From the IMG/VR virus record IMGVR_UViG_3300030519_000008: a DNA stretch of 40,897 nt; one strand, 5' to 3'. The notes below the pieces were generated by a model. The model did not search any database, was not told where the DNA came from, and worked only from the letters and a program-made list of their open reading frames with translations. The stretch's first letter is position 1; each line of letters begins with the position of its first letter. A program made the position numbers and the translations under genes. This DNA is from a virus. Positions 1-40,769 of this stretch are shown here, piece by piece.

Positions 1-127
1 CCAGGCCCACCCCCACATTCAAAGAGCCCCACACCCGGGGCTCTTTCCACATCTACACTACCCTATGAAAATTCAGCAAACTTTCAACTAATCCTTCCCA
101 ACCGTCCCCCACCCCATTACGCTAAGC
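1..127. repeat. Terminal repeat copy 1, identical to 40771..40897. The window is a circularly closing complete genome.
   Basis: Read directly: 1-127 (ccaggcccac...cgctaagc) matches 40771-40897 base for base. The match is bounded only by the two window ends; the base before 40771 (c) has no counterpart. Confidence 0.95.
21..46. terminator. Hairpin between convergent genes (40332..40769 + and 196..843 -) once the window is circularised; probably a bidirectional terminator
   Basis: AAAGAGCCCC (21-30) pairs with GGGGCTCTTT (37-46); loop ACACCC. A-run on one side and T-run on the other. A second copy inside the terminal repeat lies at 40791-40816. Confidence 0.5.
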
Positions 128-195
128 GCACACCACTCTGCCAGCAACCAGGACACCGCGGCGTCATCCACCAAACTGAAAGCCACCCCATGGTC

Positions 196-843
196 CTACT
201 GCCTCATCCAGACAATGGGCGCCGCCGACGCCAGCCGGCCGCTCTCCACACCCTGCCCATCAAATCTCCCCAGGTTCCACACGCCCGGCTCGTAGCCCTT
301 GGCCACCCAGCGCAGCATCATTCCACCGCTCACCCGCGCATCGCCCAGCAGACGCACCACGCACAAACGCCCCACCGCCTCGGCTGGCACGCCCTGAGCC
401 GTGTCGAAGAAGAAAAGCCAGCCATCGCTCGCCCCACCGACGCCCCGCAGCGCCTGGAGGCCGCCACGGCCTCCCGTCGGCCCATCCACCAGGCGTGGCC
501 CAACCACATCACCGACGTGGCCCCGCCCCTCCGCGTCAATCCACCCCACCACTGGGACTCGGGCAGGGTCCGACGCCTTGACCACTTCCACGCCGGCGCG
601 GCACATGACCTCTTCCACCGTCACGCCGAACGCCTTGGCAAACATGGCCACATCATCCGCTTTCATGCCCTGCAGCCCGTTGGTCATCCGGCCAATCGCC
701 GAATAGTGCAGGCCGACACGCTCACCGAGTCCACGGGTGGTCAGGTGGTTGCGCCGCATCTGCAGCTTGAACCATTCCGAATCTAACCCGGCCAACATCT
801 TCAACTTCCCACTGTCTGAAACCGTCGCGCTATACTTTTTCAT
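196..843 (-). CDS. CI/LexA-like phage repressor: N-terminal XRE-type HTH plus C-terminal S24-peptidase-like domain
   Basis: ORF 196..951 trimmed to ATG 843, with AAGGAGG (849-855) 5 nt upstream. HTH-like LTTRGLGERVGLHYSAIGRMTNGLQ. C-terminal VPVVGWIDAEG...GRLCVVRL...MLRWVAKG...PIVWMRQ has the layout of LexA/CI cleavage domains. Divergent from a Cro-like gene. Confidence 0.8.
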   Translation of the reverse strand: MKKYSATVSDSGKLKMLAGLDSEWFKLQMRRNHLTTRGLGERVGLHYSAIGRMTNGLQGMKADDVAMFAKAFGVTVEEVMCRAGVEVVKASDPARVPVVGWIDAEGRGHVGDVVGPRLVDGPTGGRGGLQALRGVGGASDGWLFFFDTAQGVPAEAVGRLCVVRLLGDARVSGGMMLRWVAKGYEPGVWNLGRFDGQGVESGRLASAAPIVWMRQ

Positions 844-879
844 ACCAGCCTCCTTACAAGCCAACCAAGTGGCGCAACA

Positions 880-908
880 AAGATCGCACCTAGTTACGGT
901 CTGCGCAA
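880..908 (-). promoter_or_regulatory. Candidate weak leftward (repressor-maintenance type) promoter
   Basis: Minus strand: TTGCGC (908-903), 17 nt, GATCTT (885-880). The -35 coincides with the left half of the operator copy at 893-909. Confidence 0.3.
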
Positions 909-909
909 C
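893..909 (-). promoter_or_regulatory. Operator-like 17-mer GTTGCGCAGACCGTAAC (leftward copy)
   Basis: Reverse complement of gttacggtctgcgcaac at 893-909. Perfect match to GTTGCG-N5-CGTAAC. Points toward the repressor gene. Confidence 0.65.
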
Positions 910-959
910 AAAAATAAAAGCGAAACTTAAATTATTTTCACCCCAACGCATCTTATCTC

Positions 960-988
960 TTGACCTTCAGGTGCGCAGATCGTAACTT
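960..988 (+). promoter_or_regulatory. Rightward early promoter, sigma70-like
   Basis: TTGACC (960-965), 17 nt, TAACTT (983-988). The predicted start about 7 nt downstream falls on the ATG at 995. Confidence 0.55.
970..986 (+). promoter_or_regulatory. Operator-like 17-mer GGTGCGCAGATCGTAAC (rightward copy)
   Basis: One mismatch to GTTGCG-N5-CGTAAC. Its 16-nt core TGCGCAGATCGTAACT (972-987) matches the leftward core (892-907, minus strand) at 15/16 positions. Covers the spacer and -10 of the rightward promoter. Confidence 0.65.
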
Positions 989-994
989 GAGCCT

Positions 995-1273
995 ATGAGC
1001 GAACCAAACCCCAACCGAAAATCCGCATCACGTTGCGAAAACCCGGCCTTCAGCCAGGCCGCCAAGATCATCGCCCGGTTCGGTGGTGACTTGAAAATGG
1101 CAGCCGCCCTGGGCGCGCACCGTGTCACCGTCTACCGCTGGACGCACAGCCGGCCGTATGGGTCCGATGGGCTCATCCCGGGGCCAAGCGTCGAGCGTGT
1201 CCTTGAAGCTGCCGAGCGTTGCGGGATCACCCTCACCGCTGAGGACTGGCTGCCTGAACGCATCACCTACTAG
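995..1273 (+). CDS. Cro/YdaS-like small HTH DNA-binding protein
   Basis: 92 aa. MAAALGAHRVTVYRWTH...GLIPGPSVERVLEAA resembles Cro/YdaS-type HTH proteins. Divergent from the repressor. No Shine-Dalgarno sequence upstream. Confidence 0.7.
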   Translation: MSEPNPNRKSASRCENPAFSQAAKIIARFGGDLKMAAALGAHRVTVYRWTHSRPYGSDGLIPGPSVERVLEAAERCGITLTAEDWLPERITY

Positions 1274-1318
1274 CCCTTTCAACACGTCCCCCGGCACAGC
1301 CCGGATAAGGAGCCCCAC

Positions 1319-1945
1319 ATGAAACCTCATCTCCATCTGCTCACCAAACTGGGTGCTTGCCGCGAAGCACAAGCGTTCGCCGGGACCTGCCCTGACCTTG
1401 AAACCGCCTGGAACACCTGCGACCGGTCCGACTGGATGATCTGGCTGCTGCGCCGGCTGAAATACGACGACGCCAAGGTCTATCGGCTGTACTCGTGCTG
1501 GTGCGTGCGTAACACCCCATTGGCCAATGGCCGGATGGTGTGGGATCTGCTGACCGATCCGCGCAGCCGGAACGCCGTGGTGGTAGCGGAACGGTTTGCG
1601 GTGGGTGAAGCTACTGCTGACGAACTGCGCGAAGCACGCAACGCCGCCGACGCCGCCGCCGCCGCCACCTACGCCGACGCCACCACCTACGCCGCCGACG
1701 CCGCCGCCACCACCTACGCCGCCGACGCCGCCGCCACCGCCGCCGACGCCGACGCCACCGCCGCCACCTACGCCGACGCCGCCACCACCACCGCCGCCTA
1801 CGCCGACGCCGCCGCCACCTACGCCTACGCCTACGCCTACGCCTACGCCAAAGCCACCTACGCCTGGACGGCAGCCCGAAAGGCGCAGGCCCGGCAACTG
1901 CGTGAGATGGTTCCTTTCAACATTATCGCGGGGCTGATCAAGTGA
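1319..1945 (+). CDS. Early protein with a Cys/Trp-rich N-domain and an Ala/Asp/Thr/Tyr low-complexity array
   Basis: AAGGAG (1307-1312) lies 6 nt before ATG 1319. N-terminal ...GACREAQAF...AWNTCDRSDWMIWLLRRL.... About 75 aa are made almost only of A/D/T/Y and end in YAYAYAYAYA. C-terminal ARKAQARQLREMVPFN. Confidence 0.75.
   Translation: MKPHLHLLTKLGACREAQAFAGTCPDLETAWNTCDRSDWMIWLLRRLKYDDAKVYRLYSCWCVRNTPLANGRMVWDLLTDPRSRNAVVVAERFAVGEATADELREARNAADAAAAATYADATTYAADAAATTYAADAAATAADADATAATYADAATTTAAYADAAATYAYAYAYAYAKATYAWTAARKAQARQLREMVPFNIIAGLIK
1641..1866. repeat. Cryptic GC-rich simple-sequence tract built from GCC/GAC/ACC/TAC triplets
   Basis: Visible tandem variants of gccgccgacgccgccgccaccacctac. 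Several other reading frames stay open across it (spurious ORFs 1596..1937 + and 1028..1897 -). Confidence 0.9.
1820..1849. repeat. Perfect hexanucleotide microsatellite (TACGCC)x5
   Basis: tacgcc repeated five times at 1820-1849, in frame as (Tyr-Ala)5. Confidence 0.95.
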
Positions 1946-2460
1946 CCTACATTCTAGGCATTGACCCGGGCATGGGGGGCGCCCTGGCCATGTATGCCCC
2001 GAACAAGACTCCCATCGTGTGGGACATCCCCAAGTCCGTCGACTCAGGTATAGACCCCATCGCCCTGGCCGACCTGATTGCGCGCATCCATCTGACCTAC
2101 CCGGGCGTCACCGCGGTGGTTGAGCGTGTCTCCAGCATGCCCCGCCAGTCCGGCGCATTCGCCTTCGGGCTGAGCACCGGCATCATCCACGGCTGCCTGG
2201 CGTCGGCCGGCATCCCATTCGAGCTGGTCAGCCCAGCCGTCTGGAAGGCCAAGATGGGGCTGACCAAGTTCCCCACTGAAACCTACGCCCAGAACAAGAC
2301 CCGCGCCCGCGCCCTGGCATCCCAGCTGTTCCCAGCCTTGGCATCGCAGTTCAAACGGGTGAAGGATGATGGCCGGGCTGAAGCACTACTCATCGCTGTC
2401 TACTACGCGAACCGAAAGCAGGTTCGGATCCCATTCCGGGAGCTGGAACCAAAACCCTAA
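1942..2460 (+). CDS. RuvC-like Holliday junction resolvase
   Basis: GTG start overlaps the upstream stop (GTGA). ILGIDPGMGGA (catalytic Asp), AVVERVSS (Glu), DDGRAEALLIAVY (C-terminal acidic pair). Typical phage RuvC layout. Confidence 0.85.
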   Translation: MTYILGIDPGMGGALAMYAPNKTPIVWDIPKSVDSGIDPIALADLIARIHLTYPGVTAVVERVSSMPRQSGAFAFGLSTGIIHGCLASAGIPFELVSPAVWKAKMGLTKFPTETYAQNKTRARALASQLFPALASQFKRVKDDGRAEALLIAVYYANRKQVRIPFRELEPKP

Positions 2461-2567
2461 CAGTGACGCCGTTCCAAAGGCATCCGACGCGCCCGTGAAG
2501 TCCGGGCGTTTCGGCTGCCCGGACCAAGACCATCCGAGTTGAAAACGCCGACAACGCCACGTTCAAG

Positions 2568-2714
2568 GTGGTGGTGGAGGTGTGGGACAAGGGATACCCC
2601 GCTGGCGAGCCCGACACCCTGGTGCGGACCATCCCGCTCGACAACCCCTGCTCCATGACCCCGCCCGATCTCTACCTGACCAGCACCCGCTACCTCGTGG
2701 TCAAGGAAGTCTGA
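2568..2714 (+). CDS. Small hypothetical protein; start uncertain
   Basis: Frame with high third-position GC and a plausible beta-rich sequence (...VVVEVWDKGYPAGEPDTLVRTIPLDNPCSMTPPDLYLTSTRYLVVKEV). The first canonical start is GTG 2568, but the coding-like signal continues upstream to the stop at 2496-2498. Confidence 0.35.
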   Translation: MVVEVWDKGYPAGEPDTLVRTIPLDNPCSMTPPDLYLTSTRYLVVKEV

Positions 2715-2722
2715 TCCGTCCC

Positions 2723-2748
2723 CGGGCCGGGGCTTCGGTCCCGGCCCG
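2723..2748 (+). terminator. GC-rich intra-operon hairpin (attenuator or RNA-stability element); no T-tract
   Basis: CGGGCCGGG (2723-2731) pairs with CCCGGCCCG (2740-2748); 8-nt loop gcttcggt. Confidence 0.35.
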
Positions 2749-2775
2749 CACCTGTCCATCCTCTCGGAGCCTCCC

Positions 2776-2949
2776 ATGACCCTGAGCAACGACCTTTACC
2801 AAGCCCGGAAAGCGGGCGATGCCATCACCCGAGAGATGGAAGAAGCGGCGGAAGCACTGGAAGCCCGGATCACGGAACTGGAGGCGGAACTCGCCCGATA
2901 CACCACTCCGGCAATCCTGCCGGTCGATAACTCGCCCATCGCGGGCTGA
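2776..2949 (+). CDS. Small coiled-coil hypothetical protein, 57 aa (below the ORF-track cutoff)
   Basis: Hand translation: MTLSNDLYQARKAGDAITREMEEAAEALEARITELEAELARYTTPAILPVDNSPIAG. GGAG lies about 7 nt upstream. High GC3. Confidence 0.55.
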   Translation: MTLSNDLYQARKAGDAITREMEEAAEALEARITELEAELARYTTPAILPVDNSPIAG

Positions 2950-2968
2950 TGTCCAGGAGCCACCCTCA

Positions 2969-3112
2969 ATGATCAAGCGCGCCTTCCAGGCATGGATGCG
3001 AACGAAACTCGGCTGGTTCCTGCCAAAAACCCTGACCGTCTTCGAACGTCAGCTCAGCGAAGCCTATCGCGCTGGGTTCAAGGCCGGCCGGGCGCACAAG
3101 GTGAAACACTGA
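2969..3112 (+). CDS. Small basic hypothetical protein, 47 aa
   Basis: AGGAG (2955-2959) lies 9 nt before ATG 2969. MIKRAFQAWMRTKLGWFLPKTLTVFERQLSEAYRAGFKAGRAHKVKH. Its stop overlaps the SNF2 start (TGATG). Confidence 0.5.
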   Translation: MIKRAFQAWMRTKLGWFLPKTLTVFERQLSEAYRAGFKAGRAHKVKH

Positions 3113-4554
3113 TGCAAATTGAGACGCCCTATCCTTACCAGCTGACCGGAGCCGACTACCTGGCCGCCCATCCGCAGGCCTTCCTTGCCGACGACATGGG
3201 CCTTGGGAAGTCGTGTCAGGCGGTGGTTGCGTCCGACCTGATTGGCGCCGACCGGATCCTGGTGCTATGCCCGGGCAGCGTGCGGGTCAACTGGGAAAGG
3301 GAGTTCCAGAAGTTCAGCCCGATGGACCGGCCCTGCCGGGTGCTGATGACCGGAGGGGATGAAGTGCCAACCACAGGCGTGGTCATCTGCAGCTATGATC
3401 TGCTGGTGGCGCCCACGTCCGGCAAAGCGGAGAAGCGGGCGAAGAAGGCGCCGGAAGACCAAGCCTTAAAAGCCAAGGCCAAGGCCGCGCGCCAGCTCAA
3501 AGCGAAGCGTCAGGCCTTCCTCCACGCCATCCAGGCTACCCGGTGGGACGTCCTGGTGCTCGATGAAGCCCAATACCTGAAGGACAGGGGCGCCGGCCGC
3601 ACCACCGCGGTCTTTGGCCGCAACATCAACGACCTGGGCATCGCTGGCAACGTCGATCGCATCTGGCGCCTATCCGGCACCCCAGCCCCCAACAACGTCA
3701 GCGAACTCTGGATCCACCTGCGCAGCGCCGGCATCATCACGATGGGCTACTATGACTTCGTGGCGCGCTACTGCGTCTGCATCGAAGGGAAGTTCGACGT
3801 CAAGATCGTCGGGGTCAAGAACGCCGATGAACTGAAGGGGCTGCTGGCTCAGTTCATGCTGCGCCGGATGAAGGCCGACGTCCAAGCCGACCTGCCGCCC
3901 ATCCGCTTCGAGGAAGTGGTTGTCGAGGCGAGCCCGGTGCTGCTGGACGCATCCTGGGGCCCGGGCGCCGCGGACGAAATCCGGGTGGGCGAGCAGACGC
4001 TGTCCCAAGCCTTGGCCGCCATTGCGCCTGACGCCGCCCTGGGGCTGCTGAAGACCGAGGGGGTGGCGATGGCCACGCTCAGGCGCTACACCGGCCTGGC
4101 GAAGCTCCCAGGCATCCTGGCGATCATCAAGGAAGAGCTGGAGTCGGGCGCCCTGGATAAGATCGTCCTGTTCGGGATCCACCAGGCGGTGATCGAGCAA
4201 ACCCAGAAGGCCCTGGCCAATTTCGGCGCCGTCTCCGTCTACGGTAAGACGCCCGGGCCCCAGCGCCAGGCCAACATCGACCGGTTCAGCAAGGACCCAT
4301 CTTGCCGGGTCATCGTCGGAAATATCACGGCCGCCGGCGTGGGCGTCAACGGCATGCAGGACAGCTGCAGCGAGGTGGGCCTGCTGGAGTCCAGCTGGGT
4401 TCCCAGCGACAACGCCCAGGCCGTCGCCCGCGTGCATCGCAACGGCCAGTCAAAGTCAGTCAGAGTGCGGGTATTCAGCCTGCACAACTCCAGCGATGAG
4501 CCGGTGAACGCCGCACTCATCCGCAAGATCCGCGAGCTTGCGAAAATATTTTAA
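3112..4554 (+). CDS. SNF2/Rad54-family helicase (ATPase)
   Basis: ORF 2992..4554 trimmed to ATG 3112. DDMGLGKSCQ (motif I), LVLDEAQYLKD (motif II), LSGTPAPNN (motif III), GNITAAGVGVNG and QAVARVHRNGQ (motifs V and VI). Confidence 0.9.
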   Translation: MQIETPYPYQLTGADYLAAHPQAFLADDMGLGKSCQAVVASDLIGADRILVLCPGSVRVNWEREFQKFSPMDRPCRVLMTGGDEVPTTGVVICSYDLLVAPTSGKAEKRAKKAPEDQALKAKAKAARQLKAKRQAFLHAIQATRWDVLVLDEAQYLKDRGAGRTTAVFGRNINDLGIAGNVDRIWRLSGTPAPNNVSELWIHLRSAGIITMGYYDFVARYCVCIEGKFDVKIVGVKNADELKGLLAQFMLRRMKADVQADLPPIRFEEVVVEASPVLLDASWGPGAADEIRVGEQTLSQALAAIAPDAALGLLKTEGVAMATLRRYTGLAKLPGILAIIKEELESGALDKIVLFGIHQAVIEQTQKALANFGAVSVYGKTPGPQRQANIDRFSKDPSCRVIVGNITAAGVGVNGMQDSCSEVGLLESSWVPSDNAQAVARVHRNGQSKSVRVRVFSLHNSSDEPVNAALIRKIRELAKIF

Positions 4555-4561
4555 AATTTCT

Positions 4562-4591
4562 GTTGCGAATGCCGTAACGGGGACCTAATCT
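4562..4591 (+). promoter_or_regulatory. Internal promoter with an overlapping operator-like 17-mer
   Basis: GTTGCGAATGCCGTAAC at 4562-4578 is a perfect motif match. TTGCGA (4563-4568), 17 nt, TAATCT (4586-4591). Confidence 0.55.
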
Positions 4592-4620
4592 TTCAACACA
4601 CCCACCAAGGAGGACCACCA

Positions 4621-5412
4621 GTGATCAACGTTTCCTTCAACCTGTCCGAAGTGCGCCCCAAGGAAGCCAGGGCCCTTTCCGCGATGCTCGCGGTGATCGT
4701 CGGCGCGCCGGAACTCAATCTCGACGCGCAGCTCGGCGATCTGCTCCCCAATGACCTGGCCCGGGTCTCCGCGGTGTTCAAGTCGAACATCAATGCCAGC
4801 CTGGTACCGAACGCCCGGGAGAAGAGCGCCTGCGCCGACGACTGCGTGCATCCGGATCACCATCACCTAAGTTTGCCCGAAGGTCCGGTCCAGCCCGAGT
4901 GCCCGCTGTTCGCCGGCTGCCCGGAAACGCCCCAGACTGGGCGCCCTGAGCCCGCAGTGGCGTCGCAGGCGACCGAGCCTGTCATTGCCCAGCCCGAACC
5001 CGCCGCGGCTCCTGAGCCCGTCCAGCGCCACGTCCCGGCCGACGCCATGCAGCCCGTCAAGCGCAAGCGCCGGACCAAGGAGCAGATGGAGGCCGACGAG
5101 CTGGCGGACCAGGCCATCACGAAGAACCCTGACGACAAGCTGAACGTGGTGCCCGCGGACCCTATCCAGGCCGGTCCCGTTTCGGCTCCCTCAACCGAGC
5201 CTGCCAAGACGCCCTCGATGAGTGCGCCCGCCGCTTCGCCCGAGCCCACCGGCGATGACCTCCGCGCCGCCCTTAAGGTATACGCCAAGGTCCATGGCAT
5301 GCCCAAGGCCATCGAGCTGATCAAGGACTTCGGCTGCGAGCGCATCAGCGAGCTGGAGACGAGGTCCATCACTGACCGGCTGGAGTTCATGAAGTTGGCC
5401 TCCAATGCCTGA
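4621..5412 (+). CDS. Hypothetical protein with a Pro/Glu/Ala-rich central linker
   Basis: GTG 4621 with AAGGAGG (4607-4613) 7 nt upstream. 263 aa. I recognise no motif. Confidence 0.7.
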   Translation: MINVSFNLSEVRPKEARALSAMLAVIVGAPELNLDAQLGDLLPNDLARVSAVFKSNINASLVPNAREKSACADDCVHPDHHHLSLPEGPVQPECPLFAGCPETPQTGRPEPAVASQATEPVIAQPEPAAAPEPVQRHVPADAMQPVKRKRRTKEQMEADELADQAITKNPDDKLNVVPADPIQAGPVSAPSTEPAKTPSMSAPAASPEPTGDDLRAALKVYAKVHGMPKAIELIKDFGCERISELETRSITDRLEFMKLASNA

Positions 5413-6604
5413 CGAACATTCGAAACTCTCCCCCTCCGCTGCTGAAAAGTGGTTCCATTGCCCGGGCGCGTTGTTCCTGTCCGAGGGGATGCCCCAGAAG
5501 ACCTCCAAATACGCCGACGAGGGCACTCTGGCCCACGCCCTGGGCGAGCACATCCTGACCGAAAACCCCAACGTCTTCACGGGCGCGGTCGATCTCAGCC
5601 AGGCGCAGCGCGATGAGATGCTCGCCAACGTTCGCATCTACACTGACTACGTCAACGAGCTGATGAAGCAGCCGGGGGCCATCCTCCACGTGGAGCAGCA
5701 GGTCAAGATCACCGAGAACTGCTGGGGCACATCGGACGCCACGGTGTGGGCTCCCAAGAGCGAAACGCTGTATATTAACGACTTAAAATATGGAGCTGGA
5801 ATCCCCATCAGCGTCCGCGGCAACCTGCAGCTCAAGCTCTACGGCCTGGGCGCCTTGCTGACCTGTGGCTACCCCGCCGACATCATCAACGTGGCGATCA
5901 TCCAGCCTCGGATCCAGCACGAAGATGGCTGCGTCCGCTCGGTAGACTACGACGCGGTCGACCTGATTGAGTTCCACGCCGACGTCCTGGCGGCCGAGAA
6001 GAAGGTGCTGGAAGCCAACCGTGACGGCGAATCGGACATGAAGACCTACGGCTACCTCACCAGGTTCTGGGAAGACACGTACCTGCACCCCACCGAAAAA
6101 GGCTGCCGGTTCTGCCTGGCCGCGCCAAAGTGCCCGAAGCTGCTCAAGGAGTCCAAGCAGCTGGCCAGCCAGGTTTTCGGGCCCACCCAGGCCTACAACC
6201 CGAAGGAATTGGCCGAGGTGCTGGACAAGCTCCCCCTGCTGGAAGGCTGGATCAAAAACGTCCGGGAATTCGCCTACAACGAAGCCGAGGCCGGGCGCGT
6301 TCCCCCCACTTACAAGCTGGTGGAGAAGCGCGCGACCCGGAAGTGGAAGGAAAACGTGATCGACATCTGCCTCATGGGCGTGCTGAAGATCACCGACGAA
6401 TCCCTGGTCTACAAGCCCAAGGAGCTGCTGCCGGTCGGTGACATCCTCAAGCTCTGCCCGGGGAAGAACGCTGACGAGCGAGCCAAGGTGCTGGAGCCCT
6501 TCACCGTGAAGGAAAGCTCGGGTCACACCCTTGTGCCCGATTCCGACAAACGCGAACCCGTTCGCCTTGACGCCAAGGCGACTTTCTCACAGGAGTTAAA
6601 GTGA
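5405..6604 (+). CDS. PD-(D/E)XK (Cas4/RecB-like) nuclease, DUF2800-type
   Basis: N-terminal LSPSAAEKWFHCPGA. Nuclease core SDATVW...INDLKYG (D...D-x-K). C-terminal Cys cluster GCRFCLAAPKCP. Sits upstream of the DUF2815/PolA genes, as in the known cassette. Confidence 0.8.
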   Translation: MPDEHSKLSPSAAEKWFHCPGALFLSEGMPQKTSKYADEGTLAHALGEHILTENPNVFTGAVDLSQAQRDEMLANVRIYTDYVNELMKQPGAILHVEQQVKITENCWGTSDATVWAPKSETLYINDLKYGAGIPISVRGNLQLKLYGLGALLTCGYPADIINVAIIQPRIQHEDGCVRSVDYDAVDLIEFHADVLAAEKKVLEANRDGESDMKTYGYLTRFWEDTYLHPTEKGCRFCLAAPKCPKLLKESKQLASQVFGPTQAYNPKELAEVLDKLPLLEGWIKNVREFAYNEAEAGRVPPTYKLVEKRATRKWKENVIDICLMGVLKITDESLVYKPKELLPVGDILKLCPGKNADERAKVLEPFTVKESSGHTLVPDSDKREPVRLDAKATFSQELK

Positions 6605-6825
6605 CCTTTGCCGTCACCATCGAAAACCTGAAGGCCCACGTGGTGGCCTTCATCCAGGCCGAGGGCATCGAACTGGAAGGCGGCGCCCATAAGTGCCTCG
6701 CCAAGTTCGCCGCCTTCGTGGAGGGCAAGCAGGCCGAGCAGGACGCCATCGATCTGCTGACCGCCCGCGGCTACACCATCAACCCGCCGCTGGTGATCCT
6801 GCCGGCGCCCCCGGCCCTTCCGTAA
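6601..6825 (+). CDS. Hypothetical protein, 74 aa
   Basis: GTG start overlaps the upstream stop. High GC3. No motif recognised. Confidence 0.55.
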   Translation: MTFAVTIENLKAHVVAFIQAEGIELEGGAHKCLAKFAAFVEGKQAEQDAIDLLTARGYTINPPLVILPAPPALP

Positions 6826-6843
6826 CAGTTCCGCTTCACCGCC

Positions 6844-6862
6844 GGTAGGCCGGCTGCCTACC
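6844..6862 (+). other. Short intergenic hairpin
   Basis: GGTAGGC (6844-6850) pairs with GCCTACC (6856-6862); loop cggct; followed by a T-rich stretch. Confidence 0.3.
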
Positions 6863-6891
6863 ATTCGCTCTCTTTCTGAAAGGGCCACGAC

Positions 6892-7476
6892 GTGACCACC
6901 GATCGAATCATCACCCCCGAGTTCCGCGCCTGCTTCGTCTCGCTGTTCAAGGCCACAGGCTTCAAGAATGCCGATGGCACGGAAGGCAAGCGCACCTACT
7001 CCATCAAGGCCGCGTTCCCCCCGACCGCGGATCTCTCCCAGCTGATCGCCCAGGCCAAGCAGGCGGCTGTGGACAAGTGGGGCAACAACATCCCCAAGAC
7101 CCTGCGCAGCCCGTTCCGCAAGAAGGAGGAGACCGACAACCCGGTCCAGGGCATCGGCGACGACTGGACGATCATGACCTTCAGCGCCAACGAGGACAAG
7201 TTCAGCCCCCGGCACAACCTGGTGGACGCGAGCAACAACGGCATCATGGACGAGGTCGAGGTCTACTCGGGCGCCTGGTTCGCCGCCCAGGTCCAGGCCT
7301 ACGCTTACGACACCGCCGGCAACAAGGGCGTCTCCTTCGGCCTGCGCAACGTGCAGAAGCGCCGGGAGGATGAACTCATCGGTGGCGGCAGCGGCCCCGC
7401 CAACAAGGCATTCGAAGCCGTCGCGGCGGCCGGGCCCCAGGGCGCGCCGAAGAACGCGGCCAATATTTTTGGCTGA
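6892..7476 (+). CDS. DUF2815-type phage ssDNA-binding protein
   Basis: ITPEFRACFVSLFKA..., GAWFAAQVQAYAYDTAGNKGVSFGLRNVQK and a Gly-rich acidic tail match my memory of DUF2815 SSB-like proteins. Position between nuclease and polymerase fits. Confidence 0.7.
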   Translation: MTTDRIITPEFRACFVSLFKATGFKNADGTEGKRTYSIKAAFPPTADLSQLIAQAKQAAVDKWGNNIPKTLRSPFRKKEETDNPVQGIGDDWTIMTFSANEDKFSPRHNLVDASNNGIMDEVEVYSGAWFAAQVQAYAYDTAGNKGVSFGLRNVQKRREDELIGGGSGPANKAFEAVAAAGPQGAPKNAANIFG

Positions 7477-7479
7477 GAT

Positions 7480-7496
7480 GTTGCTAGTTTCGTAAC
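7480..7496 (+). promoter_or_regulatory. Operator-like 17-mer GTTGCTAGTTTCGTAAC
   Basis: One mismatch to GTTGCG-N5-CGTAAC. Lies 4 nt after the SSB stop, at the head of a 235-bp non-coding stretch. No convincing -10 follows. Confidence 0.5.
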
Positions 7497-7499
7497 ACG

Positions 7500-7693
7500 T
7501 TGACGTCATCGGCCCGAAAGGGCCTTTGCCGCCCGACCGAACAAGCAGTCCGATCTGCCGTTCGTAAACCGGCATCAGGAGCGCGCCTACGGCAAGCGTC
7601 TGCGCAGCGAAGCAACGAAACTGCGCCTGGAATACCAGGAAAACCTCAAGTAGAAACCCCCACACAAAGCCAATCGCCCCGAAAGGGGCTTTT
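7500..7693 (+). ncRNA. Candidate structured RNA or leader, bounded by two near-identical GAAA-loop hairpins
   Basis: GGCCC-GAAA-GGGCC (7511-7524) and GCCCC-GAAA-GGGGC+TTTT (7676-7693). Further stems TGCCG/CGGCA and GCGCAG/CTGCGC lie between them. The track ORF 7500..7700 has low GC3 and a TTG start. Confidence 0.3.
7676..7693 (+). terminator. Rho-independent terminator-like hairpin
   Basis: GCCCC GAAA GGGGC followed by TTTT. Lies 19 nt upstream of the next gene's start codon. Confidence 0.5.
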
Positions 7694-7711
7694 GGCCTGA
7701 AGGAGCCTCAC

Positions 7712-7930
7712 ATGATCAAGCGTGCAGCCATCCGCGACCGAGTCTACGAAGAGCAGCGGGACCAGCTCATCCCGATTGCCGAATCCTACGCCAACCAGGT
7801 GGTGAAGTGCCGGGCCGGCGTAGGCGCCATTGAGAAGTTCCGCGAGGAGTGGACCCGGTGCTTCTGCGACCAGATGAAGAAGCTGGCGATGGCTCTGGGG
7901 ATCGCGGTTGAAGTTGAGATGGGGAGCTGA
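7712..7930 (+). CDS. Hypothetical protein, 72 aa
   Basis: AAGGAG upstream of ATG 7712. High GC3. Confidence 0.6.
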   Translation: MIKRAAIRDRVYEEQRDQLIPIAESYANQVVKCRAGVGAIEKFREEWTRCFCDQMKKLAMALGIAVEVEMGS

Positions 7931-7932
7931 AG

Positions 7933-9948: not shown

Positions 9949-9959
9949 AAGGCTGCCAA

Positions 9960-37658: not shown

Positions 37659-37687
37659 GTTGCGCATTTCGTAACATGGCCTAACCT
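37659..37687 (+). promoter_or_regulatory. Accessory-operon promoter with an overlapping operator-like 17-mer
   Basis: GTTGCGCATTTCGTAAC at 37659-37675 is a perfect motif match. TTGCGC (37660-37665), 16 nt, TAACCT (37682-37687). GGAGG at 37696-37700. Confidence 0.55.
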
Positions 37688-37707: not shown

Positions 37708-37884
37708 ATGGATAACCTGGCAGTCATGCAAGGCTTCACTGAAGAGGTCACACTGACCGGCTCGGAGCATGATCTTTACCTGCTGATCAAGCCTTGCACT
37801 GACATGGATTCCAGGTTCAAAGCTTGGGACACCGATTGCCAGGAATTCATCTACGTCAACGGTTGGCTGTTCAATCGGGAGTAG
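37708..37884 (+). CDS. Small acidic hypothetical protein, 58 aa
   Basis: ORF 37687..37884 trimmed to ATG 37708, 7 nt after GGAGG. Low-GC codon usage. Confidence 0.55.
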   Translation: MDNLAVMQGFTEEVTLTGSEHDLYLLIKPCTDMDSRFKAWDTDCQEFIYVNGWLFNRE

Positions 37885-37886
37885 AG

Positions 37887-37958
37887 ATGAACCACTTCGG
37901 CCGATTCATCCTATTCTTTGTCCTCATCGCAACCCTCACCCTTCACTTTTTCTTCTAA
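37887..37958 (+). CDS. Hydrophobic micro-ORF, 23 aa with one TM-like segment
   Basis: Hand translation: MNHFGRFILFFVLIATLTLHFFF. GGGAG 5 nt upstream. Exactly fills the gap between two genes. Confidence 0.35.
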   Translation: MNHFGRFILFFVLIATLTLHFFF

Positions 37959-37970
37959 CGGAGTCCAACC

Positions 37971-38360
37971 ATGTCAGCGTATCTCTGCAGTGAACGCCAT
38001 ATCTCCGCAGTTGCAACGATCGTTGCACAGAATCCCGGGATGTATTTGTTGCTTGGTTCGATCTTTGACCAGCTGGTCATGGACAATGTTGCCAGCTTGC
38101 AAGCGCGGTATCCACATGACCCGGACATGTGGGAAGGGTATGATGAATACTGCGTTCAACTGGTCAAAGTGGATTTGAAGACGACCCAAGGTAAAGCGCA
38201 AGCGCTCAAGGCCTTGAATTGCTACTCATATCAGGCCTGCGAGTTTGACGGATGGGGAAAGTCAGACTCTTACCAATGGGTCGAATTCGCCATTGCCAAG
38301 CTTGAAAAGACTGTTTCCAAAGAATCCAGCGAGTATCAATCCTCCGACTGGGGGTTTTAA
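37971..38360 (+). CDS. Hypothetical protein, 129 aa; partner of the GP88-like gene
   Basis: GGAG 7 nt before ATG 37971. Contains SERHISAV..., ...ASLQARYPHD... and LNCYSYQACEFDGWGKSDSY. I recognise the general pattern from phage hypothetical proteins but cannot name a function. Confidence 0.7.
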   Translation: MSAYLCSERHISAVATIVAQNPGMYLLLGSIFDQLVMDNVASLQARYPHDPDMWEGYDEYCVQLVKVDLKTTQGKAQALKALNCYSYQACEFDGWGKSDSYQWVEFAIAKLEKTVSKESSEYQSSDWGF

Positions 38361-38362
38361 CC

Positions 38363-39016
38363 ATGTTCTCTGCAATTCCCCCAATCCAAGTAAAAACACT
38401 CAATCTGTTGTCAAAGCAGAACCAAAAGCTTGGCAAGGGTATCGCCAGCTGGTCTATCAGCTCTGGCATCAGCTGCCCCGGAAAAACTCCGGCCTGCAGC
38501 GCTTGCTATGCCGACGCTATGGAAAACCAGGGGCCCCACGCGGCCGCCATCAAAAAGGGGTGGGCCAAGCGCTATCAGATGACCTTTGACCTTGACGCGC
38601 TGGAATCCAGCCTATCCAAGGATCTAGCCAAGCTTGCGCCCGGCACTCCGGTGCGGATCCATGTATCTGGTGACTTCCATAATTCGGAATACGTCATGTT
38701 CTGGCGTTCGATCGCTCAGCGCTTCCCGGACTTGGCCTTCTTTGGCTACACTCGCAGCTGGCGTGTCCCATCGCTCATGCCGGCACTTGAAGCGCTTCAC
38801 GCTAGGCCGAATGTTACGCTTTTTGCATCGATGGATGAATATTGCACTCTGCCACCCAATGGATGGCGCTATGCCATGATGGGGACCTTGAATGGTCATC
38901 CAGCACCCGGCACCATTCTTTGTCCTGAGTTAACAAAAAAGGTATCAGACTGTGGATCCTGTAAACTTTGCTTCAACAAATCGGCAAAGCTCTCCGTGAC
39001 ATTCCCAATCCACTAG
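38363..39016 (+). CDS. Cys-rich GP88-like (Gp37/Gp68-DUF5131-like) protein; possible Fe-S enzyme
   Basis: QNQKLGKGIASWSISSGISCPGKTPACSACYA (C-x5-C-x2-C-Y-A) at the N-terminus and CPELTKKVSDCGSCKLC near the C-terminus. Starts 3 nt after the previous stop. Confidence 0.7.
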   Translation: MFSAIPPIQVKTLNLLSKQNQKLGKGIASWSISSGISCPGKTPACSACYADAMENQGPHAAAIKKGWAKRYQMTFDLDALESSLSKDLAKLAPGTPVRIHVSGDFHNSEYVMFWRSIAQRFPDLAFFGYTRSWRVPSLMPALEALHARPNVTLFASMDEYCTLPPNGWRYAMMGTLNGHPAPGTILCPELTKKVSDCGSCKLCFNKSAKLSVTFPIH

Positions 39017-39071
39017 AATCTAACCCGGGCCCTGCTATCGTGGCGGGGCCCCAATCTCTTGAGGTGACCCA

Positions 39072-39422
39072 ATGCGAGACCTTGAATCTAGACTTGCAAA
39101 GTGCAAGAAAGTCGTTGACGAACACTCAGCGATCCACGCTATGGAATTCGTGGATCAAGCCAAGATAAAGAAAATCTCAGTGCAGGCCTTGACCAATCGC
39201 GCGGAAAAAGATGCCAGTGTCCGAGGTGCCAGGGTGGATCACTGCACTATTTCCGCGCCTCAGGCCTTTGGGGAATGGCTGAACCTGAGATCCATACGCC
39301 CATACTTCCTTTGCGATAACACGATAGGGCTGGACGTCAAAGGGGCCCATCGCATTAAAGATATGTACATGCTTTGGTATGACAATGCGCATTGGGCCCG
39401 GGCCCAAAGGCCTATCAAATGA
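39072..39422 (+). CDS. Hypothetical protein, 116 aa
   Basis: GAGGTGA 5 nt before ATG 39072. No motif recognised. Confidence 0.6.
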   Translation: MRDLESRLAKCKKVVDEHSAIHAMEFVDQAKIKKISVQALTNRAEKDASVRGARVDHCTISAPQAFGEWLNLRSIRPYFLCDNTIGLDVKGAHRIKDMYMLWYDNAHWARAQRPIK

Positions 39423-39523
39423 GACACCGTCTCATCCTCTGCGCAGTCTTCGCTGCCATCATCTATGGAATCATCCAAGGCCTACCTTGCGCCGTCCAAG
39501 CGACCCTTGACCTATTCCACTGA
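39419..39523 (+). CDS. Hydrophobic micro-ORF, 34 aa with one TM-like segment
   Basis: Hand translation: MRHRLILCAVFAAIIYGIIQGLPCAVQATLDLFH. ATGA overlap with the upstream stop. Confidence 0.35.
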   Translation: MRHRLILCAVFAAIIYGIIQGLPCAVQATLDLFH

Positions 39524-39561
39524 CCCATTCTGTCCGTTCTCGATCCCCCAGGAGTCACCCC

Positions 39562-39786
39562 ATGGCGTTCCAGATCCCAGAGCCCTCCGTCTCCCTGAAG
39601 TCCAAGCTGACCACTCTCGCCAAGTCTGCCCACCACCGGGTCCGGTTGATCACCGATGACGAATTTGCGGAGATCAAGGGCACGGTCTGCCTGGAGGAGG
39701 ACGCGAAGGGCTGGTTCATGTTTGACAAGCGCCAAATCGTCCTGGATCAGCGCAGCAATGGGCAGCGCGTGATCTTCGCCGTCTAA
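39562..39786 (+). CDS. Hypothetical protein, 74 aa
   Basis: CAGGAG upstream of ATG 39562. Followed by a terminator. Confidence 0.6.
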   Translation: MAFQIPEPSVSLKSKLTTLAKSAHHRVRLITDDEFAEIKGTVCLEEDAKGWFMFDKRQIVLDQRSNGQRVIFAV

Positions 39787-39810
39787 ACCTAGAATGTCCG
39801 TTCTCAACCC

Positions 39811-39834
39811 AAGGCCCCCGTCACCGGGGGCCTT
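39811..39834 (+). terminator. Rho-independent terminator of the accessory operon
   Basis: AAGGCCCCCG-TCAC-CGGGGGCCTT: a 10-bp stem followed by a T-rich tail. Confidence 0.7.
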
Positions 39835-39858
39835 TCACATTACCGCTTTACGATTTCA
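39835..39858. repeat. 24-bp direct repeat, copy 1 (TCACATTACCGCTTTACGATTTCA)
   Basis: 23/24 identical to 39923-39946. Period 88 bp. Non-coding. Confidence 0.9.
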
Positions 39859-39922
39859 GCACACATTTTAGCCCGACCATCGCTAGGCTTTTTAGGCCAC
39901 TCGGCCACGGGCTGGGACACCC

Positions 39923-39946
39923 TCACATTACCGCTTCACGATTTCA
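39923..39946. repeat. 24-bp direct repeat, copy 2 (TCACATTACCGCTTCACGATTTCA)
   Basis: 23/24 identical to 39835-39858. Confidence 0.9.
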
Positions 39947-40161
39947 CACCTGAAGCCCGGTCAGAAGCCAGAATCCAGAACAAAAGCCGGAACGCGAAAA
40001 GCCATACGCCGTAAGGGTTGCTCTACCCTCTCTTTATTTCTAAAGAAAAATAAAGAAGTATAGGTATAGCTATTATGGCCCGGTTCGGCCTTGCACCCCC
40101 TCCCGTGGCCGACCCCCGGCCCGGTCCCGGCCGCCAATGCGGATTCTGATTTAGTTTAGGG

Positions 40162-40223
40162 AAAAGCTGGAACAATTCGTGGAACATCTTAGTGCCAAGA
40201 GGGTCTGCCACGTTCCAGCTTTT
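40162..40223 (+). other. 12-bp perfect inverted repeat with a trailing T-run (terminator-like or sRNA 3' end)
   Basis: AAAAGCTGGAAC (40162-40173) pairs with GTTCCAGCTTTT (40212-40223), followed by aattttg. 38-nt loop. Confidence 0.4.
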
Positions 40224-40269
40224 AATTTTGTTTCGCCCTCCCGACGGAACATATACATGGCACTAAGAT
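40186..40269. other. Second 12-bp perfect inverted repeat, interleaved with the first
   Basis: ATCTTAGTGCCA (40186-40197) pairs with TGGCACTAAGAT (40258-40269). Its left arm lies in the loop of the first repeat and its right arm lies beyond it. Confidence 0.4.
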
Positions 40270-40284
40270 ATTTATCCGGAGCAC

Positions 40285-40313
40285 TTGATTTTTGTCCCTC
40301 ATGTGCCTATCCT
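40285..40313 (+). promoter_or_regulatory. Candidate sigma70-like promoter for the last gene
   Basis: TTGATT (40285-40290), 17 nt, TATCCT (40308-40313). GGAGG at 40321-40325. Confidence 0.45.
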
Positions 40314-40331
40314 AACCTCAGGAGGCTCTAA

Positions 40332-40769
40332 ATGAATCACCCACTCACTAAAACCGGCGCGGCTGTCCCCCGCAAGGAATACGTGTCCTATCCCTTCGCC
40401 CTCATGGCCAAAGGGGAGCACTTCGAGGTCAGCGAACCAGGGGACACGGTGGAAGCCCGCGCCAAACAACTGCGGGCGCTGCGCATCGCGGTGGCTAGGC
40501 GAAAAGCCAACAACTCAGGTGAGGAGTATGTCATCAAGGCTACTAAAACTTCAGTCATCTGCTGGAAGACGGCGGGGAAGCCTCATTGGCTATACCTCAT
40601 GCCTGTCGGGGAATGCCTGCGCAAGGGGCCGGAGCCGTCCTTGAAATCGCTCCGTCAATTTTCCCTTCAGGTTAAAGCGCTCGCGAAGAAATGCCCCGAC
40701 CGAGAGTTCCGCCTGGTGGAAGCCCGAGAGAACGGCATCCTGTTCCTCCAGGTGAAGCGCACCAAGTAG
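40332..40769 (+). CDS. Hypothetical protein, 145 aa, apparently an internal tandem duplication of a small domain
   Basis: GGAGG 6 nt before the ATG. The halves YPFALMAKGEHFEV...QLRALRIAVARRKANNSGEEYVIKAT and LYLMPVGECLRKG...SLRQFSLQVKALAKKCPDREFRLVEA align by eye. Confidence 0.65.
   Translation: MNHPLTKTGAAVPRKEYVSYPFALMAKGEHFEVSEPGDTVEARAKQLRALRIAVARRKANNSGEEYVIKATKTSVICWKTAGKPHWLYLMPVGECLRKGPEPSLKSLRQFSLQVKALAKKCPDREFRLVEARENGILFLQVKRTK

What the first reader, a model, noticed from the sequence alone, without database searches (positions are those of the whole stretch)
893..986. Five co-oriented, strictly intergenic copies of GTTGCG-N5-CGTAAC: a distributed operator (stoperator-like) network
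The copies are:
- 893-909 (minus strand): GTTGCGCAGACCGTAAC
- 970-986: GGTGCGCAGATCGTAAC
- 4562-4578: GTTGCGAATGCCGTAAC
- 7480-7496: GTTGCTAGTTTCGTAAC
- 37659-37675: GTTGCGCATTTCGTAAC

The two half-sites are 5/6 symmetric (GTTGCG versus the reverse complement GTTACG), separated by 5 bp. That is what a dimeric HTH protein would bind.

With 12 specified bases, at most 1 mismatch and equal base frequencies, I expect only about 0.2 further chance hits on both strands. A hand scan for CGTAAC/GTTACG found no other copy with 1 mismatch or fewer, and none in coding sequence.

Every copy reads in the direction of the downstream transcription unit. Each overlaps a promoter element: the -35 at 4563 and 37660, and the spacer plus -10 at 970-986. 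One repressor would therefore control the immunity switch, two replication sub-operons and the accessory operon. This resembles the asymmetric stoperators of mycobacteriophage L5 more than a lambda-type clustered OR/OL.
Basis: partly seen in the sequence, partly recalled or inferred. Interest (0 to 1): 0.68.

Follow-up and report, generated by a model that had tools for sequence, protein, structure and literature searches.

The report
Phage repressor operators built into promoters
Five copies of a 17-bp near-palindrome in this complete temperate-phage genome are most likely binding sites for its lambda-CI-like repressor, four of them built into early promoters; the pattern is real and conserved but is a familiar kind of phage regulation, not an L5-style "stoperator" system.

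Summary
There are exactly five copies of GTTGCG-N5-CGTAAC (at most 1 mismatch) against 0.09 expected by chance. All are intergenic, and there are no intermediate-scoring sites. The window is a complete circular ~40.8-kb temperate podovirus-like genome from a metagenome, related to Ralstonia phage RpY1.

The motif family GTTNCG-N5-CGNAAC recurs at syntenic positions in relatives whose CI protein is only 30-50% identical: twice in the cI-cro switch, just after the SNF2 helicase gene, and in the divergent region before the accessory operon.

The sites sit in promoters in two fixed registers. At PR, a TTGNNN hexamer lies 4 nt upstream and the right half-site supplies the -10 (TAACNT). Elsewhere the left half-site supplies the -35 (TTGCGN), with a -10 16-17 bp downstream. 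This explains the one-base asymmetry and the co-orientation; one relative has perfect palindromes.

The likely binder is a lambda-CI homologue (HTH plus an S24-like C-terminal domain lacking the catalytic Ser). The stoperator analogy is therefore not supported, except that site 7480 has no credible promoter and could be a roadblock or a looping anchor.

Verdict: a new member of a known kind, of moderate-to-low interest. No binding or transcription has been tested experimentally.

The parts
893..909 (-). Operator at the cI promoter; motif positions 2-7 (TTGCGC, 908-903) serve as the -35
   Evidence: 0 mismatches. Orthologous sites 60-90 bp upstream of cI in relatives down to 30% CI identity. 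Register with the -10-like hexamer.
880..885 (-). -10-like hexamer GATCTT of the cI promoter, 17 bp from TTGCGC; predicted start near 873, about 30 nt before the SD and the ATG at 843
   Evidence: identical in L001 and L008; TACCTT in L004; TACAAT in L019. Inferred only, no transcript data.
960..965 (+). -35 hexamer TTGACC of the rightward early promoter (PR-like), exactly 4 nt upstream of the operator
   Evidence: a TTGNNN hexamer lies 4 nt upstream of the cro-proximal motif in all 6 genomes listed there. One search adds L009 (TTGACA) and RpY1 (TTGCAT).
970..986 (+). Operator over the spacer and -10 of PR; motif positions 14-17 plus 2 nt give the -10 TAACTT (983-988). The cro ATG at 995 is the 7th nt after the -10 and has no SD, so the mRNA is probably leaderless
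   Evidence: Motif position 14 is T in 6 of 7 lineages.
4562..4578 (+). Operator at an internal early promoter 8 nt after the SNF2 stop: TTGCGA (4563-4568), 17 bp, TAATCT (4586-4591), then the SD and GTG at 4621; AT-rich tract upstream
   Evidence: A motif copy lies within about 10-35 bp after the SNF2 stop in 7 of 8 lineages. The RpY1 version reads TTGCGG-17-TATATT.
7480..7496 (+). Orphan operator 4 nt after the SSB stop, with no credible -10 in either register (CGTCAT); followed by a hairpin
   Evidence: Identical in close relatives L030 and L031 although the downstream sequence has diverged. No motif copy was found after the SSB gene in L004 or RpY1.
37659..37675 (+). Operator at the accessory-operon promoter: TTGCGC (37660-37665), 16 bp, TAACCT (37682-37687), SD GGAGG, ATG at 37708; AT-rich tract upstream
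   Evidence: Syntenic sites with -10 hexamers TAACCT (L004), TATAAT (L009), TATAGT (L010, L017, RpY1).
196..843 (-). Gene of the CI-like repressor (215 aa), the proposed binder: lambda-type HTH N-terminal domain plus a beta-rich C-terminal domain
   Evidence: repressor PHROGs; lambda repressor N-terminal domain, E about 1e-7; Foldseek: 7jvt, 2fjr, 3bdn; hhalign with lambda CI, 94.5%.
995..1273 (+). Gene of the Cro-like HTH protein (92 aa), a possible second binder of the same sites
   Evidence: weak P22_Cro match, below Pfam's cut-off. Conserved in relatives.

Best explanation
The five 17-bp sites are operators for the phage's lambda-CI-type repressor, probably shared with the Cro-like protein. 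A repressor dimer places one HTH on each GTTNCG half-site, 11 bp apart on one face of the DNA. Four sites are built into sigma-70-type promoters, so a bound dimer would exclude RNA polymerase. At PR the operator covers the spacer and the -10, silencing cro and the early/replication operon. At the cI promoter, the internal promoter after the SNF2 gene and the accessory-operon promoter, the operator's left half is the -35. In a lysogen one repressor would therefore shut every early promoter and limit its own synthesis. The one-base asymmetry and the co-orientation arise because the half-site base that the repressor does not appear to specify (position 4) is fixed by the promoter: G of the -35 TTG, or T of the -10 TA. 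Shown here: existence, non-randomness, positional conservation, fixed registers relative to promoter-like hexamers, and homology of the protein. Inferred: who binds, dimer stoichiometry, promoter activity and repression. The fifth site (7480) has no recognisable promoter; it is most simply an auxiliary operator (roadblock or looping partner).
For: Non-random and exactly five sites. The motif is conserved at syntenic positions in L001, L008, L012 and L030/31 (same motif), L004 (perfect palindrome GTTGCG-N5-CGCAAC), L009, L010, L011, L017-L023 and cultured Ralstonia phage RpY1. An operator lies just after the SNF2 stop in 7 of 8 lineages. Two fixed promoter registers carry -10 hexamers such as TATAAT, TATAGT (three times), TATATT, TACAAT and TAACCT at 16-17 bp. 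The upstream half-site has G at position 4 in 13 of 14 sites, while the downstream half-site has A6/G4/T4; motif position 14 is T in 6 of 7 PR-type sites. SD and start codons lie at sensible distances downstream. The CI N-terminal domain matches the lambda repressor DNA-binding domain. The full-length fold matches lambda and 186 CI, and the profile alignment with lambda CI runs through the C-terminal domain. Lambda operators are also 17 bp with 6-N5-6 pseudo-symmetry (established knowledge). The phage hosts span Alpha- and Betaproteobacteria, which argues for a phage-encoded binder.
Against: There is no binding or transcript data. A strict E. coli-type promoter scan calls none of these promoters, and several -10 hexamers are weak (GATCTT, CACGAT, TAATCT). 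CI cannot be separated from Cro or another phage protein, because both are conserved across the lineages. Half-site variation does not track the clear differences in the CI recognition helix (HYSAIGRM versus DPAAVSLM), so there is no specificity covariation to pin the binder. Site 7480 fits neither promoter register. The perfect site lies over the cI promoter and the imperfect one over PR, which is not the affinity order a simple switch would predict.
Confidence: 0.8

Rival explanations
1. Stoperator-like system, the first reader's framing: the sites are orientation-dependent blocks to transcription elongation placed in short intergenic gaps, as with the mycobacteriophage L5 repressor.
For: Sites 4562 and 7480 lie 8 and 4 nt after the stop codons of upstream genes inside the long early operon, and they are co-oriented with transcription. 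Site 7480 has no credible promoter yet is identical in L030 and L031 while the sequence just downstream has diverged.
Against: The site is near-palindromic, and perfectly so in L004. There are only five sites. The candidate binder is a lambda-CI homologue, not a monomer with two DNA-binding domains. The co-orientation is explained by promoter overlap. Site 4562 has a conserved -10, SD and start codon downstream.
Confidence: 0.1
2. The motif is mainly a promoter element (a -35 plus a phage- or host-specific extended element) read by RNA polymerase or a sigma factor. It would then not be a repressor site, and the dyad symmetry would be incidental.
For: At three of the five window sites, and at most sites in relatives, motif positions 2-7 coincide with a -35-like TTGCGN preceded by an AT-rich UP-like tract.
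Against: At PR-type sites the same 17-mer sits in a different register (spacer plus -10) with its own separate -35. The downstream half-site CGNAAC is conserved although it lies in the spacer, where sigma-70 promoters carry little sequence information. The dyad symmetry is conserved across lineages and is perfect in L004 and L011. Site 7480 keeps the motif without a promoter.
Confidence: 0.05
3. RNA-level element: the inverted repeat forms a hairpin in transcripts that acts as a terminator, attenuator or processing site.
For: One search lists 4557-4583 as terminator-like. The 4562 hairpin extended by its flanks folds at -11.7 kcal/mol, z = -2.4.
Against: The other copies fold no better than shuffles (z -0.3 to -0.5) and have no U-tracts. 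In both promoter registers the predicted start lies downstream of the motif, so the controlled transcript does not contain it. The two switch copies lie on opposite strands in untranscribed DNA. No Rfam family matches.
Confidence: 0.03

Closest known systems
Bacteriophage lambda CI/Cro with the OR and OL operators
   Same: The operators are 17 bp with 6-N5-6 pseudo-dyad symmetry and overlap core promoter elements of divergent cI and cro promoters. The repressor is homologous to lambda CI in the HTH domain and, by profile alignment, in the C-terminal domain. A small Cro-like HTH protein is encoded next to the switch.
   Different: There are no tandem triplets: the switch has two single operators about 77 bp apart (67-200 bp in relatives), each over its own promoter. 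Further single operators lie 3.6 and 6.5 kb into the early operon and at a distant accessory operon. The operator half-sites themselves supply the -35 or the -10. The catalytic Ser segment of the S24-type domain is deleted, so RecA-stimulated self-cleavage is unlikely.
Coliphage 186 CI with its pR operators and the distal FL/FR sites
   Same: An HTH repressor whose solved structures are among the best fold matches (2fjr, 7jvt). It uses single distal operators besides those at the switch (FL and FR about 300 bp away; PMC3675496). From general knowledge, it is not inactivated by self-cleavage.
   Different: In 186 the distal sites lie about 300 bp from the switch and act by looping or wrapping on a 14-mer wheel. 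Here the distant sites are kilobases away and mostly sit in their own promoters. No evidence for a wheel oligomer was obtained; Foldseek TM-scores are low (0.32-0.42).
Mycobacteriophage L5 / cluster A repressor operators and stoperators
   Same: One repressor with sites dispersed over the genome, in short intergenic gaps, co-oriented with transcription.
   Different: L5 sites are asymmetric 13-mers bound by a monomer with an HTH and a 'Stoperator' domain. There are more than 20 per genome, and they block elongation in an orientation-dependent way (PMC9283540). Here the site is a dyad, there are five, the protein is lambda-CI-like, and four of the five sites are in promoters.
Ralstonia phage RpY1 (MN996301) and related prophages of Ensifer adhaerens ST2 and Nitrosovibrio sp. 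Nv4
   Same: Same genome architecture (cI-like gene, SNF2 helicase, PD-(D/E)XK nuclease, Enc34-type SSB, PolA, Prim-Pol, Bbp19-type structural module). The same operator family sits at the same positions.
   Different: CI is only 35-43% identical. Half-sites mix GTTACG, GTTGCG and GTTGTG. RpY1 has an extra site after the small-terminase region (16662) and none after the SSB gene. The papers in the held library that mention RpY1 include no primary description of the phage, and the one I opened says nothing about a repressor or operators.

Membership tests
Lambda-type CI/Cro operator system | Operator of about 17 bp with two half-sites one helical turn apart (pseudo-dyad) | tested here: met
   GTTGCG-N5-CGTAAC with 5/6 symmetry; a perfect dyad in L004 and L011.
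Lambda-type CI/Cro operator system | Operators overlap core elements of divergent cI and cro promoters in the cI-cro intergenic region | tested here: met
   Two oppositely oriented sites in 844-994. The register to -35/-10-like hexamers is conserved in 6-8 lineages. The promoters are inferred, not mapped.
Lambda-type CI/Cro operator system | Repressor homologous to lambda CI (HTH N-terminal domain plus an oligomerising C-terminal domain) | tested here: met
   1lli, 1lmb, 3bdn; E 1e-7 to 1e-6; 3bdn, 7jvt, 2fjr; hhalign 94.5%, aligned to lambda residue 188.
Lambda-type CI/Cro operator system | Tandem arrays of three adjacent operators (OR1-3, OL1-3) bound cooperatively | tested here: not met
   Only single sites: two in the switch, 77 bp centre to centre. 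The only extra element is an isolated half-site at 872-877 that is not conserved in L008.
Lambda-type CI/Cro operator system | S24 Ser-Lys self-cleavage for SOS induction | tested here: not met
   The lambda G-N-S-M segment (Ser149) aligns to a deletion. There is no invariant Lys in the family and no Peptidase_S24 Pfam match. The lambda sequence was supplied from memory.
Lambda-type CI/Cro operator system | Direct binding of CI and Cro to the sites | not testable with these tools
   Needs EMSA, footprinting or ChIP.
L5-type stoperators | Asymmetric 13-bp recognition sequence | tested here: not met
   A 17-bp dyad; the single asymmetric base is explained by promoter overlap; palindromic in L004.
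L5-type stoperators | Monomeric repressor with two DNA-binding domains (HTH plus Stoperator domain) | tested here: not met
   The candidate binder has one HTH and a lambda-CI-like beta-rich C-terminal domain. Criterion taken from PMC9283540.
L5-type stoperators | More than 20 sites per genome, many inside operons in short intergenic gaps | tested here: not met
   Exactly five sites in the complete genome; two lie in short gaps inside the early operon.
L5-type stoperators | Site orientation correlates with the direction of transcription | tested here: met
   5 of 5 in the window, but promoter constraints account for it.
L5-type stoperators | Orientation-dependent block of elongating RNA polymerase | not testable with these tools
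   Needs read-through reporters with inverted sites; relevant only for 7480, and possibly 4562.
Intrinsic terminator / RNA hairpin | Stable G+C-rich hairpin followed by a U-tract, present in the transcript | tested here: not met
   z-scores from -0.3 to -2.4, no U-tracts. The motif lies upstream of the predicted transcription starts.

The most novel reading that the evidence does not exclude
The dispersed sites could do more than occlude promoters. The promoter-less 7480 operator, and similar orphan sites in relatives such as RpY1 16662, could act as transcription roadblocks. Alternatively they could be anchors that an oligomeric CI, with a lambda/186-like C-terminal domain, uses to loop kilobase-distant operators together. 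That would amount to a dimer-and-palindrome counterpart of stoperators, or long-range repressor looping, in a proteobacterial podovirus. The roughly 70-bp promoter-operator cassette seen twice in L012 might then be a portable module that plugs newly acquired genes into the immunity circuit.
Probability: 0.15. Interest if true: 0.6.

Novelty: new member of a known kind. Interest (0 to 1): 0.33.

Why it matters
The result gives a testable regulatory map for a widespread, essentially unstudied clade of temperate podoviruses: RpY1-like phages of Ralstonia, prophages of Ensifer and Nitrosovibrio, and many soil and peat metagenome contigs. The map consists of the operator consensus GTTNCG-N5-CGNAAC, five predicted operator sites, four predicted promoters, and a lambda-CI homologue that probably cannot self-cleave. 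For RpY1-type phages considered for biocontrol of Ralstonia, knowing the immunity circuit helps in judging lysogeny risk or in engineering virulent derivatives. The finding is also a clear example of how overlap with promoter elements can make a symmetric operator look asymmetric and oriented. It does not reveal a new regulatory principle.

Tried and rejected
1. **Megablast of window 1-8000 against cultured phages:** no match. The relatives were found only through protein searches.
2. **Specificity covariation:** I looked for a link between the CI recognition helix and half-site position 4. The first impression was G in the window and L004, T in L009 and A in L010/L011. It dissolved when more sites were collected: every lineage mixes GTTGCG, GTTACG and GTTTCG. 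Covariation therefore cannot identify the binder.
3. **Presence or absence of Cro:** the Cro-like protein is conserved in all lineages, although it is not always the first gene after the switch. This does not separate CI from Cro.
4. **A third switch operator:** only an isolated half-site exists (GTTGCG at 872-877, minus strand; direct repeat D1), and it is not conserved in L008. Rejected.
5. **A promoter at 7480:** neither register gives a -10 (CGTCAT; CACCAA in L031). The TTGACG just downstream of the motif has no -10 either.
6. **RNA hairpin or terminator role:** rejected.
7. **Host-factor site or plasmid-partition (parS-like) site:** no ParA/ParB-type domain appeared among the roughly 30 window ORFs I scanned (most structural-gene ORFs were not scanned). 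The sites sit in fixed promoter registers and in the cI-cro switch of phages from different host classes. Rejected by inference.
8. **Strict E. coli sigma-70 consensus scan:** it does not detect the proposed promoters. The promoter calls rest on conserved geometry, not on consensus strength.
9. **phiC31 repressor comparison:** the literature search for phiC31 conserved inverted repeats found nothing usable in the held library, so that comparison is not made.

Full report
**1. Observation**

The five copies of GTTGCG-N5-CGTAAC (at most one mismatch) are at the stated coordinates and strands. Dinucleotide-preserving shuffles give 0.09 matches on average, and none of 100 reached five.

- Relaxing to two mismatches adds three new positions (5179, 16479, 38813); 2.4 matches are expected by chance at that stringency.
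- A position-weight matrix built from the five sites scores them at 23.9-27.7 bits. The next best 17-mer in the genome scores 12.3, within the range of the best hits in shuffled genomes (10.9-18.6). The distribution is bimodal: five sites and nothing in between.
- The first and last 127 bases of the window are identical, so the window is a circular assembly of a complete genome of about 40,770 bp, and five is the full complement.
- The window is JGI metagenome contig Ga0311343_10001484. An independent ENA assembly gives a 40,911-bp contig.
- All five sites are intergenic. A crude gene map that under-calls genes still gives at least 85% coding sequence. The chance that five random sites all fall in non-coding DNA is then at most about 6e-5.

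**2. What the genome is**

Gene content:
- A CI-like HTH repressor on the minus strand (196..843).
- A divergent Cro-like gene (995..1273).
- A long rightward early/replication operon: RuvC-like resolvase, SNF2 helicase 2992..4554, DUF2800 nuclease, Enc34-type SSB 6892..7476, family-A DNA polymerase, Prim-Pol primase, and a lysozyme-like protein.
- A leftward structural operon starting with the terminase genes (36972 down to 14522).
- A rightward accessory operon (37708..40769) that converges on cI.

No cultured phage matches at the DNA level. By protein search, the closest cultured relative is Ralstonia phage RpY1, with CI 41% identical and the same gene order. Related prophages occur in Ensifer adhaerens ST2 and, integrated in a 1.77-Mb contig, in Nitrosovibrio sp. 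Nv4. The clade is therefore temperate.

**3. Comparative evidence**

CI homologues from 93% down to 30% identity were placed in their genomic context. The motif family GTTNCG-N5-CGNAAC recurs at the same map positions:

| Position | Where it is found |
|---|---|
| cI-cro switch, one copy facing each gene | W, L001, L008, L004, L009, L010, L011, RpY1 |
| Within about 10-35 bp after the SNF2 stop codon | 7 of 8 lineages, although SNF2 is only 40-60% identical |
| Divergent region between the terminase operon and the accessory operon | W, L001, L012, L004, L009, L010, L017, L019, RpY1 |

In L004 (CI 49% identical) the switch sites are perfect palindromes, GTTGCG-N5-CGCAAC. L011 has a perfect palindrome after the SNF2 gene.

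The 7480 site is found only in the window's close relatives. In L030 and L031 it is identical, although the sequence immediately downstream has diverged and the window carries a ~165-bp insertion there.

**4. Two promoter registers**

I oriented all orthologous sites by the downstream gene.

- **Register (a), the cro-proximal sites.** A TTGNNN hexamer lies exactly 4 nt upstream of the motif in every genome examined (TTGACC, TTGCGC, TTGCAA, TTGCCA, TTGCGT, TTGACA, TTGCAT). At the resulting 17-bp spacing, the -10 consists of motif positions 14-17 plus two bases (TAACTT, TAACCT, CAACAT, TAACAT).
- **Leaderless cro.** In the window the cro ATG (995) is the seventh base after this -10 and has no Shine-Dalgarno sequence. 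This predicts a leaderless cro mRNA in W, L001, L008 and L004. L010 and L011 have a leader with an SD instead.
- **Register (b), all other promoter sites.** Motif positions 2-7 (TTGCGN) are the -35, and a -10-like hexamer follows after 16-17 bp:
  - TAATCT (4586-4591)
  - TAACCT (37682-37687)
  - GATCTT (885-880, minus strand)
  - in relatives: TAACCT, TATAAT, TATAGT (three times), TATATT, TACAAT, CATAAT and CACAAT
- **Flanking features in register (b).** An AT-rich UP-like tract lies upstream. An SD and a start codon lie 14-30 nt downstream of the predicted start.

A strict E. coli consensus scan does not call these promoters. The argument rests on conserved geometry across diverged sequences, not on consensus strength.

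**5. Why the sites look asymmetric and co-oriented**

In register (b) the upstream half-site has G at position 4 in 13 of 14 sites. That base is the G of the -35 TTG. The downstream half-site has A, G or T there (6, 4 and 4 sites). In register (a), motif position 14 is T in 6 of 7 sites, and it is the first base of the -10. The repressor therefore seems not to specify position 4; the overlapping promoter element fixes it on one side. This accounts for the GTTGCG/GTTACG asymmetry and the 5-of-5 co-orientation without an intrinsically asymmetric binder.

**6. The probable binder**

- The CI family's N-terminal domain matches the lambda repressor DNA-binding domain by sequence (1lli, 1lmb, 3bdn; E about 1e-7 to 1e-6).
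- An AlphaFold2 model (mean pLDDT 81) has five helices followed by a beta-rich domain. Its best Foldseek matches are the lambda-186 hybrid repressor, 186 CI and full-length lambda CI. TM-scores are low (0.32-0.42), as expected for two flexibly linked domains.
- A profile alignment with lambda CI (sequence supplied from memory) has 94.5% probability and extends to lambda residue 188. The G-N-S-M segment carrying the catalytic Ser149 aligns to a deletion. The family has no invariant Lys. This is a lambda-CI homologue that probably cannot self-cleave, so induction may need an antirepressor or another route (inference).
- Lambda operators are likewise 17 bp with 6-N5-6 pseudo-symmetry (established knowledge).
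- The Cro-like protein is also conserved. It may bind the same sites, as in lambdoid phages.
- Neither presence/absence nor specificity covariation separates the two candidates. All lineages mix GTTGCG, GTTACG and GTTTCG half-sites despite clear differences in the CI recognition helix.

**7. Mechanism proposed**

In a lysogen, CI dimers would occupy one operator in each early promoter and exclude RNA polymerase. At PR this silences cro and the replication genes. The other two targets are the internal promoter after SNF2 (nuclease, SSB and downstream genes) and the accessory-operon promoter. The operator over the -35 of the cI promoter would give negative autoregulation; it is also the natural target for Cro during lytic growth. 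An internal constitutive promoter would otherwise leak replication functions in a lysogen, so it makes sense for each early promoter to carry its own operator. These steps are inferred; none has been tested.

**8. The exception**

Site 7480 has no -10 in either register (CGTCAT in W and L030; CACCAA in L031). It lies between the SSB stop codon and a hairpin whose sequence differs between L031 and the other two genomes. It may be a roadblock, an auxiliary or looping operator like FL/FR of phage 186 (PMC3675496), or a very weak promoter.

**9. Rivals**

- **Pure promoter element.** This is contradicted by the second register at PR, by conservation of the downstream half-site inside the spacer, and by the dyad symmetry.
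- **RNA hairpin or terminator.** This is contradicted by weak and inconsistent folding, by the absence of U-tracts, by the motif lying upstream of the predicted starts, and by the lack of any Rfam match.
- **Host factor or partition site.** This is unlikely given the switch location, the fixed promoter registers and hosts from different proteobacterial classes. No ParAB-type domain appeared among the ORFs I scanned.

**10. Comparison with known systems and verdict**

Functionally and by homology this is a lambda-type CI operator system. It differs in three ways: single rather than tandem operators, dispersal to internal and distant promoters, and half-sites that themselves supply the -35 or the -10. 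It fails four of the five defining features of L5 stoperators listed in PMC9283540 that could be tested. The fifth, orientation bias, is met but explained otherwise.

None of the nine papers in the held library that mention RpY1 is a primary description of that phage. The one I opened says nothing about a repressor or operators.

I classify the finding as a real, conserved, well-explained feature: a new member of a known kind. Its interest is moderate to low.

Noticed in passing
window 1-127 and 40771-40897: An exact 127-bp terminal direct repeat, typical of the assembly overlap of a circular sequence. The window is therefore a complete genome of about 40,770 bp. The accessory operon (ending at 40769) and cI (ending at 196) converge on a shared hairpin, gagccccacacccggggctc (window 24-43, repeated at 40794-40813).
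   Followed up: yes
window 196-843 (minus strand): The CI-like repressor is a lambda-CI homologue through its C-terminal domain, but the segment equivalent to lambda G-N-S-M (catalytic Ser149) is deleted, and no Lys is invariant in the family. RecA-type self-cleavage is unlikely, and the induction route is unknown. No antirepressor was identified.
   Followed up: partly
window 7497-7711: Compared with close relatives L030 and L031, the window has a ~165-bp insertion between two similar hairpins (GGCCCGAAAGGGCC at 7511-7524 and GCCCCGAAAGGGGC at 7676-7689). The insertion contains an open frame in phase with the SSB gene (ending ...LRLEYQENLK*) that has no ATG, GTG or TTG start. No Rfam match. 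Its origin and function are unknown.
   Followed up: partly
L012 4353-4369 and 4652-4668: In a relative with 93% identical CI, the roughly 70-bp cassette (AT-rich tract, operator/-35, -10, SD) occurs twice, 299 bp apart, in front of different genes. One copy has unrelated upstream sequence. This looks like a portable promoter-operator module.
   Followed up: partly
window 983-997: The cro-like gene appears to be leaderless: the ATG at 995 is the 7th base after the -10 TAACTT and has no SD. The arrangement is conserved in L001, L008 and L004, whereas L010 and L011 have a leader with an SD.
   Followed up: partly
window 37491-37658: The part of the divergent region that should hold the late (terminase-side) promoter has no operator. 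It contains a 14-bp GC palindrome, ccgcgggcccgcgg (37610-37623), a direct repeat GTTCYAAAT on the minus strand, and a degenerate operator-like 17-mer, GATGCGCAGATAGAAAT (37548-37564; 10.6 bits, which is chance level). Part of this block is conserved in L012.
   Followed up: no
L029 (RpY1, MN996301) 1310-3460, and window 9888-12125: The RpY1 gene annotated 'integrase' (RpY1_001) is 53% identical over 738 residues to the window's Prim-Pol/DUF5906 primase-type protein, so that annotation is doubtful. No integrase was recognised among the window ORFs I scanned; the structural-region ORFs were not all scanned.
   Followed up: partly
window 872-884 and 903-915: Direct repeat GCGCAACAAAGAT / GCGCAACAAAAAT. 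It places an extra isolated GTTGCG half-site between the cI-proximal operator and the cI SD. It is conserved in L001 but not in L008.
   Followed up: partly
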